A stretch of DNA of 64,000 nt from Candidatus Hydrothermus pacificus (GTDB lineage: Bacteria; Hydrothermota; Hydrothermia; Hydrothermales; Hydrothermaceae), in the NCBI GenBank assembly GCA_002011615.1, contig MTOH01000002.1, forward strand, positions 207,526 through 271,525, in the 5' to 3' direction. The notes under the pieces were generated by a model, which saw only the letters and a list, made by a program, of their open reading frames with translations, did not search any database and was not told where the DNA came from. Position 1 is the stretch's first letter, and the number at the start of each line of letters is the position of its first letter. Below, piece after piece: positions 32,569 to 39,553 of the stretch. The position numbers and the translations under genes were made by a program.

Positions 32569-34602
32569 ATGAATAAGGAGAAAATAAGAAATATAGGATT
32601 GGCAGCTCATATAGATGCAGGTAAAACTACAACGACAGAAAGGATACTTTTTTATACGGGTAGAATTCATAGAATAGGTGAGGTAGATGAGGGAACAGCG
32701 ACCATGGATTGGTTGCAGCAGGAAAAGGAACGAGGTATTACAATATGGTCTGCTGCAACTACCTGTTACTGGAAGGAATACAGGATAAATATAATAGATA
32801 CTCCTGGACATGTTGATTTTACTGCAGAAGTTGAGAGGTCTTTAAGAATTCTTGATGGGCTCGTGGTTATCTTTTGTGCAGTAGGTGGGGTTGAACCTCA
32901 GTCCGAAACAGTATGGAGACAGGCAGATAAATTTGATGTGCCGAGAATAGTATTTATAAATAAGATGGATAGAATAGGAGCCGACTGTTTCAGGGTTTTG
33001 AAGGAGATTGAGAAGAAATTTGCGGTTAATACTGTTCTAATGCAGTTGCCTCTCGGAGCCGAGGAAGAGTTTAAAGGGGTAATTGACCTTTTGAGAGGGA
33101 AGAAACTTATATGGGATGTAGACGAAATCGGGGAAAGATATAGAGAAGAGGAAGCCAGTGAAGAAGAGATGGGTAACTGGAGAGAAGAGCTTTTCCTTTG
33201 CCTGGGCGAGCTTGACGATGAACTTGCAGAGAGATATATTGAGAAAAAAGATATAGAGCTTAAAAAAGTTAAGAGTATAATAAGAAAAGGGGTTATTGAA
33301 GGCAGAATAGTTCCTGTTTTTATCGGATCTGCGTTAAAAAATAAGGGGATTCAATGTCTGATTGATGCGATATGTGACTATCTTCCCTCACCGCTTGATA
33401 AAAGAGGTGTAATGGGTAAGATTCCTGGCAAAGAGGAAATAATTGAAAGAAAGCCTTCAGATGAAGAACCTTTTAGTAGTGTTGTCTTTAAAATTCAAAT
33501 AGATAAAAAACTTGGCAAACTCTCCTATACAAGAGTTTATTCTGGTAAAATCAAACCGGGACAGAAGATAATGAATTCTGCAAATGGAGAAATATTCAGA
33601 ATCCAGAGACTTTATCTGTTGCATGCTAATAGAAGAAACTCTCTTCAAGAAGCTGCGGCAGGTGAGATAGTTGGAATAGTGGGCGCAAAAAGGGTTAAAA
33701 CAGGAGATACTTTTTGTGATATTGATAATCCTGTTATTTATGAGGAAATGCTTTTTCCAGAGCCTGTTGTATCAATTGCGATAGAACCAAAGAGTATAAG
33801 AGAACTCCCAAAACTTGAGGAGTGCCTTGCTTTCATGCTTGAGGAAGACCCGACATTCAGGGTGAAAAGGGATGAAGAAACAGGGCAGTTCGTGCTCAGC
33901 GGTATGGGAGAACTTCAGCTTGACATATTGCTCGACAGGCTTAAAAGGGACTTTGGTCTGGAAGTCAGGTCTGGTAAACCGCAGGTTGCTTATAGAGAAA
34001 CAATTTCTGTTTCAGCAAGTGGGTATCATAAGTTTTCAAAAACAATAGGAGATGCTCATCATTTTGGTGAAGCCAACCTGAGCGTGCATCCTAATCCTCA
34101 GAAAGGTAATTACATAGAAATACCTGTGGATATCCCGGATGACTTTAAAGAAGTGGTGCGTGAATCTGTAAATACGATTCTTCTATTTGGTCCTCTTGCT
34201 GGTTATCCGGTAACTGACGTAAAAGTTGAATTTCACAAACTCTCAAAAGGCAGTAATGTAACTCCCCTTGGTCTTGGTAACGCGATTCAGGAAGCTTTGA
34301 GAGAAGCTCTTATAAAGGGAGACCCTATTCTTCTTGAACCTGTGGTTAAAATAGAGATTACAGTTCCCTCAGAGTTTGTGGGTAATGTTGTTGGTGACCT
34401 TGGAACAAGGAATGCCTCTTTGAAAAAAATTACAAAGGTGTCGGACTTTATTCAGAGGGTTTCAGCAGAAATACCTCTGAGGGAAATTTTTGGTTATGCA
34501 ACTACTTTGAGGTCATTAACTCAGGGAAGGGGTAACTTCTGGATGGAAATATCCCACTTTGCTCCTGTCCCTGAAGAGATAAAGAAGAAAATAATGATTT
34601 AA
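32569..34602 (+). CDS. fusA: Elongation factor G
   Basis: 677 aa; GTPase G1-G4 motifs ([21 protein letters not shown]) and EF-G domains II-V. Confidence 0.95.
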
Positions 34603-34614
34603 GGAGGTGTAAAG

Positions 34615-35829
34615 ATGGCAAAACAAAAATTTGAAAGAACAAAACCCCATGTCAATGTGGGGACTATAGGACATATAGACCACGGGAAAACAACCCTCAC
34701 GTCTGCCATTACAAAGGTTCTTTCTACCAAAGGACTCGCACAGGAAAGATCCTATGATGAAGTTGCAAAAGCTGATGCAAAGCTCTTCAGAAGAGATGAA
34801 ACCAAAATTTTGACTGTTAACCTTGCGCATATTGAATATGAGACCGAAAAAAGGCATTACGCTCATATTGACTGCCCGGGACACCATGATTATGTTAAGA
34901 ATATGATTACAGGTGCCGCACAGATGGATGGCTCAATACTGGTAGTTGCTGCTACTGATAGTGTTATGCCCCAGACAAGAGAGCATACACTTCTCGCAAG
35001 ACAGGTTAATGTTCCTTATATACTTGTATTTGTTAACAAAACAGATGCAGTTGATGACCCTGAACTTGTTGAACTGGTTGAAATGGAAGTAAGAGACCTT
35101 TTGAATAAATATGAATTTCCCGGTGATGATGTCCCTGTTATAAAAGGTAGTGCTTTGAAAGCTCTTCAGTGTGGTTGTGGAAAGAAAGAATGTGAGAATT
35201 GTGGGTCTATATGGCAACTCCTTGATGCAATGGATAGTTATATTCCCGAACCAAAAAGAGAAATTGATAAGCCTTTCCTGCTTGCAATAGAAGATATTTT
35301 CTCAATAACCGGTAGAGGAACTGTAGTTACAGGTAGAGTGGAAAGGGGAAAGATTACTCCCGGTGCTGAAGTTGAGATAGTTGGTTTTGGACCCACAAGG
35401 AAAACAGTGGTTACAAGTCTTGAGATGTTTAGAAAAACACTTGATGAAGCTATTGCAGGAGACAATGTGGGGCTTCTTTTAAGAGGAATTGGCAAAGATG
35501 AGGTGGAAAGAGGAATGGTTATTTCTACACCCGGTTCAATCACACCCCATACTAAATTTAAAGCAGAAGTTTATGTTCTTACAAAAGAAGAAGGTGGAAG
35601 ACATACTCCCTTTTTCAATGGTTACAGACCACAGTTCTATTTCAGAACGACTGATGTTACGGGTTCTATTAAACTTCCTGAAGGTAGAGAAATGGTTATG
35701 CCTGGTGACCATGTGAATCTGGATGTAGAACTCATGTATCCTGTGGCTCTTGAAAAAGAATTGAGGTTTGCGATAAGAGAGGGTGGTAGGACTGTTGGTG
35801 CTGGTGTGGTTACTGAAATAGTGGAATAA
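34615..35829 (+). CDS. tuf: Elongation factor Tu, with a Cys4 insertion in domain I
   Basis: 404 aa; canonical EF-Tu motifs ([21 protein letters not shown]). Carries [13 protein letters not shown] where E. coli has the GDAEWEAKILE loop. Confidence 0.95.
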
Positions 35830-36138
35830 ATGGAACAGAAGATAAGAATAAAATTGCAGGCTTTTGATCCGAGACTCCTGGATAAATCTGCAAGAAGAGT
35901 GGCTATGACTGCCCGGATGACAGGAGCGAGAGTATCAGGACCCATTCCTCTGCCGACAAGAAGAACATTGATTACAGTGATCAGATCCCCACATATTGAC
36001 AAGAGGTCACGAGAGCAGTTTGAATTGAAAATTCACAAAAGGTTGATAGAGATAAAAAGTCCCACGCCTGACACAATTGATAAATTATCAAGAGTGGAAA
36101 TACCTGCAGGAGTTGATGTGGTTATAAAGGTGGTATAG
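35830..36138 (+). CDS. rpsJ: 30S ribosomal protein S10
   Basis: 102 aa; [11 protein letters not shown]-terminus and conserved S10 core. Confidence 0.95.
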
Positions 36139-36140
36139 AG

Positions 36141-36788
36141 ATGACAGGGTTGATTGCGAAAAAACTTGGGATGACACAGATTTTTGATGATAGAGGAAAT
36201 GTTGTGCCTGTTACAGTTCTGGATTTTTCAGAATGTTATGTTCTGGACCTCAGAGAAGAAGAAAATGATGGTTATAACGCTGTTAGACTCTGCTACGGAA
36301 ATGTAAAAGCAAAAAGATTGAACAGACCTATACTTGGAGTCTTCAAGAAGATTTTTGGAGATAAGGATTTTTATCCAGCAAGATTTGTCCTGGAATTAAG
36401 AACTAAGGGTTCTGTTGATTTTAAGCCCGGTGAAAAAGTTGATGCTGAAAAGCTTTTCCAGATAGGAGAGAAGGTTGATGTGATTGGTAAAACCAAAGGC
36501 AGAGGGTTTACTGGTGTTATGAAGAGATGGAATTTTTCGGGTGGACCTTCTTCTCATGGCTCAATGTTCAAAAGAAGACCCGGTTCAATAGGTCAGACCA
36601 CAGACCCTGGAAGAGTCTGGAAGGGCAAGAAAATGGCGGGACATTATGGTAACGAGAGGGTTACCATTCACAATCTGGAGGTGATGAAAATAGACAAAGA
36701 TAGAGAAGTTATTCTGCTCAAGGGGTCTGTCCCGGGACCTGCTGGTTCATTTGTTGTGATACGGAAAGCAAAAAGGAGGAAACTGTAA
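36141..36788 (+). CDS. rplC: 50S ribosomal protein L3
   Basis: 215 aa; GLIAKKLGMTQIF N-terminus and GKTKGRGFTGVMKRWNF motif. Confidence 0.95.
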   Translation: MTGLIAKKLGMTQIFDDRGNVVPVTVLDFSECYVLDLREEENDGYNAVRLCYGNVKAKRLNRPILGVFKKIFGDKDFYPARFVLELRTKGSVDFKPGEKVDAEKLFQIGEKVDVIGKTKGRGFTGVMKRWNFSGGPSSHGSMFKRRPGSIGQTTDPGRVWKGKKMAGHYGNERVTIHNLEVMKIDKDREVILLKGSVPGPAGSFVVIRKAKRRKL

Positions 36789-36791
36789 GAG

Positions 36792-37430
36792 ATGGCAATA
36801 AAGGCACCTTTATATAATTTACAGGGAGAAAAAATAGGAGAAATAGATTTGAAGGAAGATATTTTCGGTCACGAACCGAACGTGCATCTTTTATGGGAAT
36901 ATGTTAGAATGTATCTTGCGAATCAAAGAGCGGGCACAGCGTCCACCAAGACAAGGGCAGAAGTAAGAGGTGGTGGAAGAAAACCATGGCCTCAAAAACA
37001 TACCGGGAGAGCAAGACATGGGTCTATAAGGTCTCCGATATGGAGAAAAGGAGGAGTTGCTTTTGGTCCAAAACCCAGAAACCACCATTATCATATTCCC
37101 AGAAAGGCAAGAAGACTCGCAACAAAACAGGCAATTTCTGACAGGGCAAAGGAAGGCAGAATAATGGTTCTTGAGGACATTAAGTTTGAAAATGGAAAAA
37201 CAAAAGAAGCTATTAGTCTTTTTAAGAAAATAGGGATTTATGGCAAGAAGATTCTCATTGCCACTCATAGCATGGATAAATCTGCAATTTCACCCTTGAG
37301 AAATCTTGATAAGACAAGAATTATACTGGGTAAAGATTTAAATGCTTATGAAGTCTTGAATTCTCAATATGTTCTTTTTACAAAAGAAGGGCTTGAACAG
37401 TACATAAAAATTCAGGGGAGTAAAAAATGA
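36792..37430 (+). CDS. rplD: 50S ribosomal protein L4
   Basis: 212 aa; conserved L4 region (KPWPQKHTGRARHGSIRSPIWRKGG). Confidence 0.95.
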   Translation: MAIKAPLYNLQGEKIGEIDLKEDIFGHEPNVHLLWEYVRMYLANQRAGTASTKTRAEVRGGGRKPWPQKHTGRARHGSIRSPIWRKGGVAFGPKPRNHHYHIPRKARRLATKQAISDRAKEGRIMVLEDIKFENGKTKEAISLFKKIGIYGKKILIATHSMDKSAISPLRNLDKTRIILGKDLNAYEVLNSQYVLFTKEGLEQYIKIQGSKK

Positions 37431-37720
37431 AAGACCCCAGAGATATAATTATTGAACCAATAGTTACAGAAAAAAGTGTGCATCTTAGAGATACACATAA
37501 TCAGTATGCATTTAAAGTCGCCATAAATGCTACTAAACCTGAGATAAGGAAAGCTGTAGAAGACCTGTTTAAGGTTAAAGTAGCCGATGTTAAAGTTATA
37601 AATGTAAAACCAAAAAAGAGAAGGCTCAGAACAAGGAAGTTTGGTTATACTTCTTCATGGAAAAAAGCTTATGTAAGATTAAAAGAAGGTGATAGAATAC
37701 CAATCTTTGAAGGAGCGTAA
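37427..37720 (+). CDS. rplW: 50S ribosomal protein L23
   Basis: 97 aa; position between L4 and L2 and L23-like sequence. Confidence 0.9.
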
Positions 37721-37721
37721 A

Positions 37722-38540
37722 ATGGGAATTAAAAAGTACAAACCTGTTACACCATCAAGAAGGTTTATGAGTTCTATTGATTTTTCAGAGCTTACCAAAA
37801 AAGAACCCGAGAAATCACTTGTGGTTCCTCTTAAAAAAACAGGTGGTAGAAACAATCAGGGCAGGACTACAGTAAGATTCAGAGGAGGAGGGCACAAAAG
37901 ACTGTACAGAATAATAGACTTCAAGAGAAATAAGGATGGAATTCCTGCAAAGGTTGTGAGTATAGAGTATGACCCGAATAGAACTGCGTGGATTGCTTTG
38001 CTGCAATATCGTGATGGAGAAAAACGATATATAATTGCGCCTCATGGTTTAAAAGTTGGAGATGAAGTTCTTTCAGGATCAGGTGCTCCTTTAAAGACCG
38101 GTAACACATTAACTCTCGCAGATATTCCAGAAGGAATTGAAATCCATAATATAGAGTTGATTCCTGGGAGAGGCGGTCAGCTTGTCCGTGCTGCAGGTGC
38201 GTCAGCCCTTATACTTTCCAAAGAAGGTGGTTATGCTCATGTTCAGATGCCTTCAGGTGAAATAAGAATGATTAATGTGAAGTGTAAAGCAACTATTGGT
38301 AGAGTCAGCAATGTAGACAACGAAGTTGTTGTTACAGGTAAAGCGGGAAGAACACGGTGGCTCGGTAAAAAGCCCCATGTAAGAGGGGTTGCAATGAACC
38401 CTGTAGACCATCCTCATGGAGGAGGAGAAGGAAGAACAAAAGGCAAGATTCCCAAAAGTCCCTGGGGCTGGTACACAAGAGGGAGAAAAACCAGGAAGAA
38501 AAAATCATCAAACAGGTTTATAATCAAAAAGAGAAAATAA
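37722..38540 (+). CDS. rplB: 50S ribosomal protein L2
   Basis: L2 N-terminus [14 protein letters not shown] and C-terminal [10 protein letters not shown] motif. Start set at the internal ATG (ORF-track start 37689 overlaps rplW). Confidence 0.95.
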
Positions 38541-38638
38541 AACTTTCTACAAATTCTTTTAATTATCATCTGCCAAAAAGTTTAATTGCTCAATACCCTC
38601 TAAAAAAGAGAGATGAGGCAAAATTACTTGTTGCGAAT

Positions 38639-39553
38639 TTGTGTAACGATTCTGTAGAGCATACTAAATTTAAATTTATCTACAGGTACATGAAAAAAGG
38701 TGACGTGCTTATCTTGAATAATACAAAGGTCATACCTGCCAGAATAATTGCGAGAAAAGAGACAGGAGGTAAAGTTGAAATGCTATTTATTGAACAGCTG
38801 AACAAAAATAAATTCACAGCTCTTGTAAAGGGTAAAAACCCTGAGGGCAAAAAACTGTATGTTAAAGACTATATCTTAAAATGTTTTAAAGAAAAAGGAC
38901 AATATGTGTTTGAGATTCAGAATTCAGATTGTAAAAATTTTCTTGATACTGTGGGGTTACCCCCTTTACCTCCTTATATAAGGAGAGCACCCGATGATAT
39001 TGACAGATACTATTATCAGACTGTTTTTGCTCAGAAAGACGGTTCTATTGCGGCTCCTACCGCAAGTTTGCATTTTACAGAAGAGCTTTTAAAGAAAATA
39101 AAAAAAGAAGGTATCAAAATAAAATACATAAATTTAAAGGTGGGAGTGGGAACATTTAATCCTGTAAAAGAAAAATATATAAGTATGCATAAAATGGATG
39201 AGGAATATTATGAAATACCCGATGATACCATTTCTGAAATTATAAAAGCGAGAAAAGATAATAATAAAATTTTTGTTTGTGGAACTACATGCGTTAGAGC
39301 AATTGAATCATACGCTTTAACAGGTAAAAAATCAGGTTTTACAGATCTTTTTATTTATCCTCCTTTTGAATTTAAATTTGTAGATACTATTATTACAAAT
39401 TTTCATCTACCCAGATCTACACCACTTGCACTTGTCTGTGCTTTTGGAGGTAGAGAAAAAATTTTAAAACTTTATGAGCTTGCCAAGAGAACAGGATACA
39501 GGTTCCTAAGTTATGGTGATGCTATGATGCTTCTTAAAAATAATGAGAATTGA
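38639..39553 (+). CDS. queA: S-adenosylmethionine:tRNA ribosyltransferase-isomerase QueA (start uncertain; conserved N-terminus extends upstream to about 38540)
   Basis: QueA motifs (NNTKVIPAR, LPPLPPYI, APTASLHFT, GTTCVRAIES, HLPRSTPLALV). The in-frame region 38540-38638 encodes FNYHLPKSLIAQYP, matching the E. coli QueA N-terminus, but holds no ATG/GTG/TTG. Confidence 0.85.
   Translation: MCNDSVEHTKFKFIYRYMKKGDVLILNNTKVIPARIIARKETGGKVEMLFIEQLNKNKFTALVKGKNPEGKKLYVKDYILKCFKEKGQYVFEIQNSDCKNFLDTVGLPPLPPYIRRAPDDIDRYYYQTVFAQKDGSIAAPTASLHFTEELLKKIKKEGIKIKYINLKVGVGTFNPVKEKYISMHKMDEEYYEIPDDTISEIIKARKDNNKIFVCGTTCVRAIESYALTGKKSGFTDLFIYPPFEFKFVDTIITNFHLPRSTPLALVCAFGGREKILKLYELAKRTGYRFLSYGDAMMLLKNNEN

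What the first reader, a model, noticed from the sequence alone, without database searches (positions are those of the whole stretch)
35164..35214. Cys4 (CxCx5CxxC) insertion in EF-Tu domain I
EF-Tu is otherwise canonical, but the loop that in E. coli reads GDAEWEAKILE is replaced by [17 protein letters not shown], four cysteines spaced like a zinc knuckle. Zinc-ribbon variants are well known for some ribosomal proteins, but I do not recall one in EF-Tu. It may be a lineage-specific metal-binding or redox-sensitive element in an essential translation factor.
Basis: seen in the sequence. Interest (0 to 1): 0.5.

Follow-up and report, generated by a model that had tools for sequence, protein, structure and literature searches.

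The report
Four-cysteine metal loop in EF-Tu
The translation factor EF-Tu of this uncultured WOR-3 bacterium has a conserved four-cysteine loop that probably holds a zinc (or iron) ion; the loop is not specific to this lineage but occurs in many bacterial phyla, and I found no paper or solved structure that describes it.

Summary
The tuf gene (34615-35829, +) encodes a complete EF-Tu whose residues 185-201 read [17 protein letters not shown], which is nt 35167-35217, 3 nt downstream of the reported span. The "lineage-specific" reading is wrong. These include Bacillota, Dehalococcoidia, Desulfobacterota, Thermodesulfobacteria, Aquificota, Nitrospirota, Patescibacteria, Planctomycetota and Thermoleophilia. 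In a sample chosen without reference to the motif, 4-5 of 106 metagenomic EF-Tus carry it. The four positions behave like metal ligands: they are all present or all absent (CCCC 102, HCCC 9, few partial forms), His can replace Cys1, the residues between them vary freely, and both Cys codons are used. AlphaFold2 models the loop with pLDDT 94-96. The ligand layout, CxC…CxxC(G), matches that of the Hsp33 zinc centre. No solved EF-Tu in the PDB has the loop, and eleven literature searches found no description. The best reading is a small structural Zn(Cys)4 loop, a "C+" form of EF-Tu comparable to the zinc-binding forms of some ribosomal proteins. Metal binding, the identity of the metal and any redox role remain untested, and the cysteine geometry could not be measured here.

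The parts
34615..35829 (+). tuf gene, EF-Tu, 404 aa plus stop; sits in the str operon between fusA (32569-34602) and rpsJ (35830-36138)
   Evidence: ORF list. Pfam GTP_EFTU, D2 and D3 full length. NCBIfam TIGR00485 scores 675 bits against a cut-off of 522. PDB EF-Tus match at E=1e-194.
35149..35157 (+). G5 motif S179-A180-L181 (the guanine-base contact in E. coli EF-Tu, established knowledge); the Cys loop starts 5 residues after it
   Evidence: Read directly from the sequence. G178, S179 and A180 are invariant in alignment A1.
35167..35217 (+). The loop [17 protein letters not shown] (aa 185-201) between helix 180-186 and helix 197-209 of the G domain
   Evidence: AF2 secondary structure, with pLDDT 94-96 for residues 181-200.
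35170..35181 (+). First ligand pair C186-G187-C188-G189 (CxC half-site). C186 is His in one clade.
   Evidence: Column counts among 60 unique loops found by whole-protein similarity: C53/H7, G59, C60, G54.
35191..35205 (+). Second ligand pair C193-E-N-C196-G197, a CxxC(G/K) knuckle at the N-terminus of helix 197-209. It aligns with E. coli A182-E-W-E185-A.
   Evidence: Columns are C60 and C60. The residues between them vary freely (E/P/Q, then W/H/N/K). E. coli alignment.
34759..34839 (+). Not part of the Cys site. Long minority form of the switch-I/effector loop (aa 49-75, [26 protein letters not shown]), listed because it is the other non-canonical stretch of this EF-Tu.

Best explanation
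The window's EF-Tu is a functional single-copy elongation factor of the 'C+' type. Between the G5 motif and the last helix of the GTPase domain it has a short loop whose four cysteines (C186, C188, C193, C196) most likely coordinate one metal ion, probably Zn2+. The CxC pair follows the short helix 180-186. The CxxC(G) pair caps the N-terminus of helix 197-209. Metal binding would pin this surface loop, which is hypervariable across EF-Tus, into a rigid knuckle and stabilise the end of the G domain, with no direct part in GTP hydrolysis. E. coli-type EF-Tus (…EGDAEWEAKILEL…) are the cysteine-free 'C-' counterpart of the same segment. Shown here: the motif itself, its position, its conservation pattern, its wide distribution and its confident modelling. 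Inferred: metal binding, zinc as the metal, and a structural rather than regulatory role.
For: (1) The ligand columns are all present or all absent. Among 270 database EF-Tus and fragments they read CCCC 102 and HCCC 9, partial patterns are rare, and the rest have no Cys. Among 209 full-length sequences they read CCCC 176 and HCCC 9. (2) A Cys-to-His swap at ligand 1 in a whole clade (HGCx5CxxC) is the classic metal-ligand substitution. (3) The Cys residues, and the Gly after C1 and C2, are nearly invariant, while the spacer residues vary freely. TGT and TGC are both used at all four codons in 119 genomes, which indicates selection on the amino acid. (4) The same loop sits at the same site in 119 of 120 pattern hits from about 20 phylum-level groups. 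The sequences cluster by taxon (Dehalococcoidia 14, Clostridia 10, and others), and 21 state changes are needed against about 52 for shuffled labels, which points to long vertical retention. (5) AF2 gives pLDDT 94-96 across residues 181-200 although the loop has no regular secondary structure. (6) The CxC…CxxCG ligand layout is the one in the Hsp33 zinc centre (KCTCS…HCDYCG; zinc coordination by four Cys, PMC8614738). (7) Another member of the EF-Tu superfamily, aIF2-gamma, has a Cys4 insertion in its G domain (the zinc in it is from my own knowledge). (8) All G motifs, the domain architecture and the operon position are intact, so the loop sits in a working EF-Tu. The model adopts the GTP form, with TM 0.9 to 1EFT and 1TTT.
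Against: There are no metal data, and no solved structure of any Cys4 EF-Tu exists. The prediction tool gives no coordinates, so the S-S distances were never checked. High pLDDT may partly reflect the conserved alignment. The site is dispensable: close relatives lack it or keep only two Cys, and about 95% of sampled EF-Tus have other loops at this position. Any benefit must therefore be modest or depend on context. No residues elsewhere in EF-Tu covary strongly with the loop (largest frequency difference 0.5). Zinc versus iron cannot be decided from sequence, and many carriers are anaerobes.
Confidence: 0.55

Rival explanations
1. Redox- or metal-responsive switch. The Zn(Cys)4 site behaves like the Hsp33 zinc centre: oxidants or metal starvation release the metal, the loop next to the guanine-binding G5 motif unfolds, and EF-Tu activity or stability drops. 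This would couple elongation to oxidative stress or metal supply.
For: The ligand layout is the same as in Hsp33 (CxC…CxxCG), whose four Cys release zinc on oxidation (PMC8614738). The loop begins 5 residues after the G5 SAL motif. Many carriers are anaerobes, and the window itself encodes hypF, hypB and hypA, assigned from their sequences without a family search. From my own knowledge, EF-Tu is a known redox target through the DCPGH cysteine in cyanobacteria (PDB 8YLY and 8YM3 are titled 'regulating photoinhibition').
Against: No functional data exist. Carriers also include taxa I take to be aerobes (my own knowledge), such as Sulfobacillus, Thermoleophilia, Binatia and Gemmatimonadota. The loop lies at a hypervariable surface position that tolerates any sequence. 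Most Zn(Cys)4 sites are purely structural (established knowledge).
Confidence: 0.15
2. Iron rather than zinc. The site is a rubredoxin-like Fe(Cys)4 centre, or less likely a small Fe-S cluster, in organisms from iron-rich, zinc-poor sulfidic habitats. It could be redox-active.
For: Four Cys with a CxxCG knuckle can also bind Fe, as in rubredoxin (established knowledge). Carriers are enriched in anaerobes such as Desulfobacterota, Clostridia, Dehalococcoidia and Thermodesulfobacteria. From my own knowledge, adenylate kinase of Desulfovibrio gigas uses Co or Fe in a site that holds Zn in other species.
Against: The HCCC variant and the CxC spacing are not rubredoxin-like. An 11-residue span is too tight for the usual 4Fe-4S motifs. 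Taxa I take to be aerobic keep the motif (their lifestyle is my own knowledge). Stoichiometric redox-active iron on the most abundant cytosolic protein would be hazardous.
Confidence: 0.12
3. No metal. The cysteines form disulfides or are free, and the loop is just one of many neutral sequence solutions at a variable surface site.
For: The loop region is hypervariable among EF-Tus. Two-Cys and zero-Cys derivatives exist in close relatives. From my own knowledge, Sulfolobus aIF2-gamma reportedly uses its knuckle cysteines without zinc.
Against: Neutral drift does not explain four invariant Cys plus invariant Gly across about 20 phyla alongside free variation of the spacers, the all-or-none pattern, or the His swap. 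Cytosolic disulfides are unlikely in anaerobes.
Confidence: 0.08

Closest known systems
aIF2-gamma / eIF2-gamma Cys4 'zinc knuckle' in the G domain (P. abyssi 1KK0 and others)
   Same: It is a translational GTPase of the EF-Tu superfamily (TIGR03680 hits the query at E=2e-33) with a four-cysteine insertion in domain I that includes CPxCG-type knuckles.
   Different: The insertion site differs: in aIF2-gamma it lies between RGITI (switch I/beta2) and DAPGH (G3), while here it follows G5. The layout there is CxxC-x9-CxxC in a hairpin, while here it is CxC-x4-CxxC in a coil. It is a different protein family. That aIF2-gamma binds zinc is from my own knowledge.
C+ / C- forms of bacterial ribosomal proteins (L31, L33, L36, S14, S18…; Makarova et al. 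2001, from my own knowledge; L31/L36 paralogues in PMC9825181 and PMC13343924, listed)
   Same: A component of the translation machinery exists in a Cys4 zinc-type form and a cysteine-free form. The distribution across bacteria is patchy, and loss of the cysteines has recurred.
   Different: Those sites are zinc ribbons. The C- forms are often Zur-regulated paralogues in the same genome. Here only one tuf is visible in the window and in each 8-kb locus, and no paralogue system or Zur link has been shown.
Hsp33 C-terminal zinc centre (redox switch)
   Same: The ligand pattern is the same, CxC … CxxCG, and all four ligands are Cys (PMC8614738).
   Different: The spacer is 30 residues in Hsp33 against 4 here. 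In Hsp33 it forms a separate folded domain, and the proteins are not homologous. Redox behaviour has not been tested for EF-Tu.
Thermus EF-Tu 10-residue insertion at the same site ([25 protein letters not shown])
   Same: The insertion point is the same, between the short helix after G5 and the last G-domain helix. It shows that this site accepts extra structure in a working EF-Tu, and solved structures exist (1EFT, 1TTT).
   Different: It has no cysteines, no metal and an unrelated sequence.
Adenylate kinase LID domain, Zn(Cys)4 in many Gram-positives and anaerobes versus a hydrogen-bond network in E. coli (from my own knowledge)
   Same: A housekeeping nucleotide-binding enzyme in which a structural Cys4 metal site and a metal-free sequence are interchangeable across bacteria. 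The metal can be Zn, Co or Fe in Desulfovibrio.
   Different: The protein and fold are different. I could not verify this from the papers I opened.

Membership tests
Bacterial EF-Tu (TIGR00485) | Full-length match above the curated cut-off, with the three-domain architecture | tested here: met
   TIGR00485 scores 675.5 bits against a cut-off of 522.4. PF00009, PF03144 and PF03143 are all full length.
Bacterial EF-Tu (TIGR00485) | Intact G1-G5 motifs and catalytic His | tested here: met
   GHIDHGKT (G1), the Thr in KILTV (G2), DCPGH (G3 plus His90), NKTD (G4) and GSAL (G5) can all be read in the translation. Switch I is the long minority form.
Bacterial EF-Tu (TIGR00485) | Position in the str operon (rpsL-rpsG-fusA-tuf-rpsJ) | tested here: met
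Bacterial EF-Tu (TIGR00485) | EF-Tu fold | tested here: met
   AF2 model has mean pLDDT 84. Foldseek gives TM 0.89-0.90 to 1EFT, 1TTT and 4V5L, the GTP form.
Structural Zn(Cys)4 short zinc-binding loop | Four potential ligands (Cys or His) within a short stretch, as two closely spaced pairs | tested here: met
   C186-x-C188-x4-C193-x2-C196.
Structural Zn(Cys)4 short zinc-binding loop | Ligands conserved together in homologues while spacers vary; Cys/His exchange allowed | tested here: met
Structural Zn(Cys)4 short zinc-binding loop | Four sulfurs converge to tetrahedral geometry (S-S about 3.6-4 Å) | not testable with these tools
   Structure prediction returns pLDDT and DSSP only, and no coordinates appear in /data. 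The only indirect support is pLDDT 94-96.
Structural Zn(Cys)4 short zinc-binding loop | Stoichiometric metal in the protein | not testable with these tools
   This needs ICP-MS, a PAR assay or a structure. No PDB entry has the loop.
Zinc ribbon (as in C+ ribosomal proteins) | Two CxxC knuckles on beta hairpins forming a small sheet | tested here: not met
   The first pair is CxC. Only 4 residues separate the pairs. DSSP on the model shows coil for 187-196 with no strands.
Hsp33-type redox-switch zinc centre | CxC … CxxC ligand arrangement | tested here: met
   Hsp33 has KCTCS…HCDYCG; here the sequence is QCGCG…ECENCG. The spacer is 30 residues in Hsp33 and 4 here.
Hsp33-type redox-switch zinc centre | Oxidation releases zinc and changes activity | not testable with these tools
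   This is a biochemical test.
C+/C- paralogue system (Zur-regulated) | A second, cysteine-free paralogue in the same genome under zinc control | tested here: inconclusive
   tblastn finds one tuf in the 64-kb window and one in each 8-kb locus. Whole genomes were not available.

The most novel reading that the evidence does not exclude
EF-Tu is one of the most abundant cytosolic proteins. A stoichiometric Cys4 metal site would make it the largest single zinc (or iron) pool in these cells, and it could serve as a metal- or oxidant-sensitive throttle on translation elongation. The site may be ancient and may have been lost repeatedly, as with the zinc-ribbon ribosomal proteins, in lineages facing zinc scarcity or oxygen.
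Probability: 0.12. Interest if true: 0.75.

Novelty: new variant of a known kind. Interest (0 to 1): 0.45.

Why it matters
EF-Tu is essential, very abundant and one of the most studied proteins in biology, yet every solved structure is of a cysteine-free type. If about 1 in 20 bacterial EF-Tus carries a metal site, several things follow. The zinc or iron budget of those cells would be dominated by a translation factor. That would extend the link between zinc and translation beyond the ribosomal proteins; a review on zinc and translation does not mention EF-Tu as a zinc protein. Recombinant EF-Tus from Clostridia, Dehalococcoidia, Desulfobacterota and candidate phyla, used in cell-free translation or structural work, may need metal to fold. 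Ancestral EF-Tu reconstructions used as palaeothermometers lack the loop in the versions deposited in the PDB, although a crude tree suggests long vertical retention with many losses. If the site is only a structural staple, the result is a tidy but modest addition to the catalogue of interchangeable C+/C- protein forms.

Tried and rejected
(1) I searched the 50%-identity representative library with the 64-aa loop fragment. EF-Tu is so conserved that the library holds mostly odd fragments. Only 15 of 150 hits carried Cys4, and the result says nothing about distribution.
(2) I could not measure Cys-Cys distances. The structure tool returns no coordinates, and nothing is written to /data.
(3) The Foldseek search against the PDB returned only EF-Tus and carries no information about the loop.
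(4) Eleven literature searches, including raw sequence strings, found no description of a Cys4 or zinc EF-Tu. The library lacks most subscription-journal papers, so this is weak evidence of novelty.
(5) I opened papers to support the adenylate-kinase and aIF2-gamma analogies. They did not contain the relevant statements, so those points rest on my own knowledge, except the aIF2-gamma sequence, which was verified.
(6) I looked for residues elsewhere in EF-Tu that covary with the loop. There were only weak differences, clustered at residues 34-46 and probably phylogenetic, so I did not interpret them.
(7) I looked for a second, cysteine-free tuf copy. None was found in the DNA available, but whole genomes were not searched.
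(8) Rejected readings: a zinc ribbon (no hairpins); a lineage-specific novelty; an assembly or frameshift artefact (the protein is 100% identical to a database cluster seen on 5 contigs).

Full report
OBSERVATION. The ORF at 34615-35829 (+) encodes a 404-aa protein. It lies between fusA (32569-34602) and rpsJ (35830-36138), downstream of rpsL and rpsG. It has full-length GTP_EFTU, D2 and D3 Pfam domains. It scores 675 bits on the TIGR00485 EF-Tu equivalog model against a cut-off of 522 and matches solved EF-Tus at E=1e-194. The string [17 protein letters not shown] is residues 185-201, nt 35167-35217, one codon downstream of the reported span. Cysteines are at 186, 188, 193 and 196. The only other Cys is the canonical C87 of DCPGH. 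The comparison with E. coli is correct. E. coli reads SALKALEGDAEWEAKILEL at residues 173-191 (verified against PDB chains). The window's loop is 5 residues longer, with Cys3 opposite A182 and Cys4 opposite E185. The common form xCEWCGKIWEL lines up with DAEWEAKILEL.

SOURCE ORGANISM. The protein is identical to a database cluster seen on 5 contigs. Its closest named relatives (83-93% identity) are labelled candidate division WOR-3 or Candidatus Hydrothermales. The window has 36% G+C. By their sequences (no family search was run), its other ORFs look like hypF-hypB-hypA, formate-tetrahydrofolate ligase and gatCAB. That suggests an anaerobe that metabolises hydrogen.

THE LOOP IS NOT LINEAGE-SPECIFIC. 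Among the 120 best whole-protein homologues, all 21 close relatives at 83-100% identity whose sequences were resolved have the Cys4 loop. So do proteins labelled Thermodesulfobacteria and Thermosulfidibacteraceae. I then scanned one genome per species (185,579 species) with a degenerate DNA pattern for A-[L/M]-x-C-G-C-G-x3-C-x2-C-x2-[I/V]. By my arithmetic this pattern should match about 9 times by chance in the whole collection.
- On translation, 119 of the 120 hits lie at exactly this site of tuf. The one exception is a GC-rich Nocardioides sequence.
- The record titles name Bacillota (Moorella mulderi, Desulfitobacterium, Syntrophomonas, Sulfobacillus harzensis, Caloramator, Desulforudis, Negativicutes and others), Dehalococcoidia/Chloroflexota and many 'Deltaproteobacteria'/Desulfobacterota (Desulfocarbo, Pelobacter, Desulfobacteraceae).
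- They also name Binatia, Thermodesulfobacteriales and Thermosulfurimonas, Aquificota, Nitrospirae, Omnitrophota, Saccharibacteria/Patescibacteria, Planctomycetota, Acidobacteriota, Gemmatimonadota, Thermoleophilia, Armatimonadota, Leptospiraceae, Coatesbacteria, Ratteibacteria and WOR-3.

For a frequency estimate that does not depend on the motif, I sampled metagenomic tuf genes with a pattern for DCPGHADY. Of 106 loops recovered, 4 have the canonical motif. One more (L170) has a different four-Cys layout at the same place, ECTTCDVSGACEWCDAI. That gives about 4-5%. The same sample shows that this loop is the most variable part of the G domain in length and sequence.

THE FOUR CYSTEINES BEHAVE AS METAL LIGANDS.
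- The ligand columns are all present or all absent. In 270 database proteins and fragments they read CCCC 102 and HCCC 9. Partial patterns are few (CGCY 5, CDCC 1, C-CF 1), and the rest have no Cys. In 209 full-length sequences they read CCCC 176 and HCCC 9.
- A whole clade has His in place of Cys1 (HGC-x5-C-x2-C), the classic ligand exchange.
- In the 60 unique loops found by whole-protein similarity, and so independently of the motif, the Cys columns are invariant and Gly follows Cys1 (59/60) and Cys2 (54/60). The spacer positions vary freely (K/D/E, R/E/K/D, E/D/S, E/P/Q, W/H/N/K). The last Cys is followed by G or K, giving a CPxCG-like knuckle.
- Both TGT and TGC are used at each of the four codons across the 119 genomes.
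- AlphaFold2, run with a 48-sequence alignment, gives mean pLDDT 84 and pTM 0.76. Residues 181-200 score 94-96 although 187-196 are coil between helices 180-186 and 197-209. The CxxC pair therefore caps a helix N-terminus, a common zinc-site geometry.
- The CxC…CxxCG arrangement is the one found in the Hsp33 zinc centre (KCTCS…HCDYCG), where four Cys coordinate zinc (PMC8614738).

WHAT IS NOT SHOWN. There are no metal data. No PDB EF-Tu has the loop. The best matches to the loop fragment are ancestral reconstructions, Thermus and E. coli, all without the cysteines.

EVOLUTION. I built a crude neighbour-joining tree of 157 non-redundant sequences with the loop columns removed: 84 with the site and 73 without, the latter mostly from the unbiased metagenome sample. 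The site needs 21 state changes on this tree, against about 52 for shuffled labels. Carriers group by taxon, for example 14 Dehalococcoidia and 10 Clostridia. This fits long vertical retention with many losses or gains better than recent transfer of a single gene, but the tree is rough and the carrier set was selected by motif. In the neighbourhood of the query, which was not selected by motif, cysteine-free or decayed forms are nested among carriers at least three times. They include plausible intermediates: ECG-DNIDCEWYKPI, GC---DSECDDWKPIW and EA---DSDGEAWKPIW. The site can therefore be lost without losing EF-Tu function.

MECHANISM. The loop starts 5 residues after the G5 SAL motif and ends at the start of the last G-domain helix. 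This is the position where Thermus carries an unrelated 10-residue insertion and where EF-Tus in general vary most. It is therefore a permissive surface site, not part of the catalytic or switch machinery. My best reading (confidence 0.55) is a structural Zn(Cys)4 short zinc-binding loop that rigidifies this junction, making this a 'C+' form of EF-Tu. The rivals are a redox- or metal-responsive switch of the Hsp33 type (0.15), iron instead of zinc in anaerobes (0.12), and no metal at all (0.08). I found no strong covariation with other EF-Tu residues that would indicate a docking surface.

COMPARISON WITH KNOWN SYSTEMS. The protein is a true EF-Tu; every defining feature I tested was met. The loop is not a zinc ribbon, because the model has no hairpins and the first pair is CxC. 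The nearest precedent inside the superfamily is the Cys4 knuckle of aIF2-gamma. That one is inserted at a different place, between RGITI and DAPGH. The nearest conceptual precedent is the C+/C- dichotomy of ribosomal proteins, but no cysteine-free paralogue or Zur link was seen. There is one tuf in the window and one in each locus.

NOVELTY. Thousands of such sequences are already in public databases, so the protein is not new. I found no paper describing a cysteine or zinc site in EF-Tu. A review devoted to zinc and translation mentions EF-Tu only for lysine methylation. The paper library omits most subscription journals, so an older report cannot be ruled out. I rate the finding a new variant of a known kind, with interest 0.45: real, conserved, widespread and cheap to test, but most likely a structural staple.

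Noticed in passing
window 34759-34839 (EF-Tu aa 49-75): The switch-I/effector loop is a long minority form, [26 protein letters not shown]. It is 5 aa longer than the canonical [21 protein letters not shown], and RGIT becomes KILT with the Thr kept. The same type (…RRDxTKILTI…) occurs in 5 of 109 sampled metagenomic EF-Tus and in WOR-3 and Omnitrophota loci. A shorter AKGGTVRDxTKxVTI form also exists. It is independent of the Cys loop. AF2 pLDDT is below 50 here.
   Followed up: partly
window 34885-34887 (H91) and 34960-34962 (S116): Two near-universal EF-Tu residues are replaced in this lineage. DCPGHADY becomes DCPGHHDY, which puts a second His next to the catalytic His. DGPMPQT becomes DSVMPQT. 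Both changes are fixed in all 21 close WOR-3 relatives and rare elsewhere.
   Followed up: partly
L170 (metagenome contig Ga0074195_1027413), tuf loop: A different four-cysteine layout occurs at the same EF-Tu site: ECTTCDVSGACEWCDAI (CxxC-x6-CxxC). This suggests a second version of the site.
   Followed up: no
P0052, P0094, P0100, P0115, P0116 (WOR-3-related EF-Tus): Decayed versions of the loop keep only Cys1 and Cys3 (ECGDNIDCEWYKPI, GCDSECDDWKPIW) or no Cys at all (EADSDGEAWKPIW). They look like intermediates between the Cys4 type and the E. coli type.
   Followed up: partly
window 35830-39553: The S10 ribosomal-protein operon appears to stop after rplB (ends 38540). It is followed by a queA-like gene, a trkA-like gene, a large GAF/PAS-type sensor kinase and response regulators, instead of rpsS-rplV-rpsC. 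These gene identities were judged by eye from the translations; no family search was run.
   Followed up: no
L028 and L039 (long-read MAG contigs): In these two assemblies tuf is frameshifted just after the Cys loop. These are probably homopolymer errors in the assemblies rather than pseudogenes.
   Followed up: no
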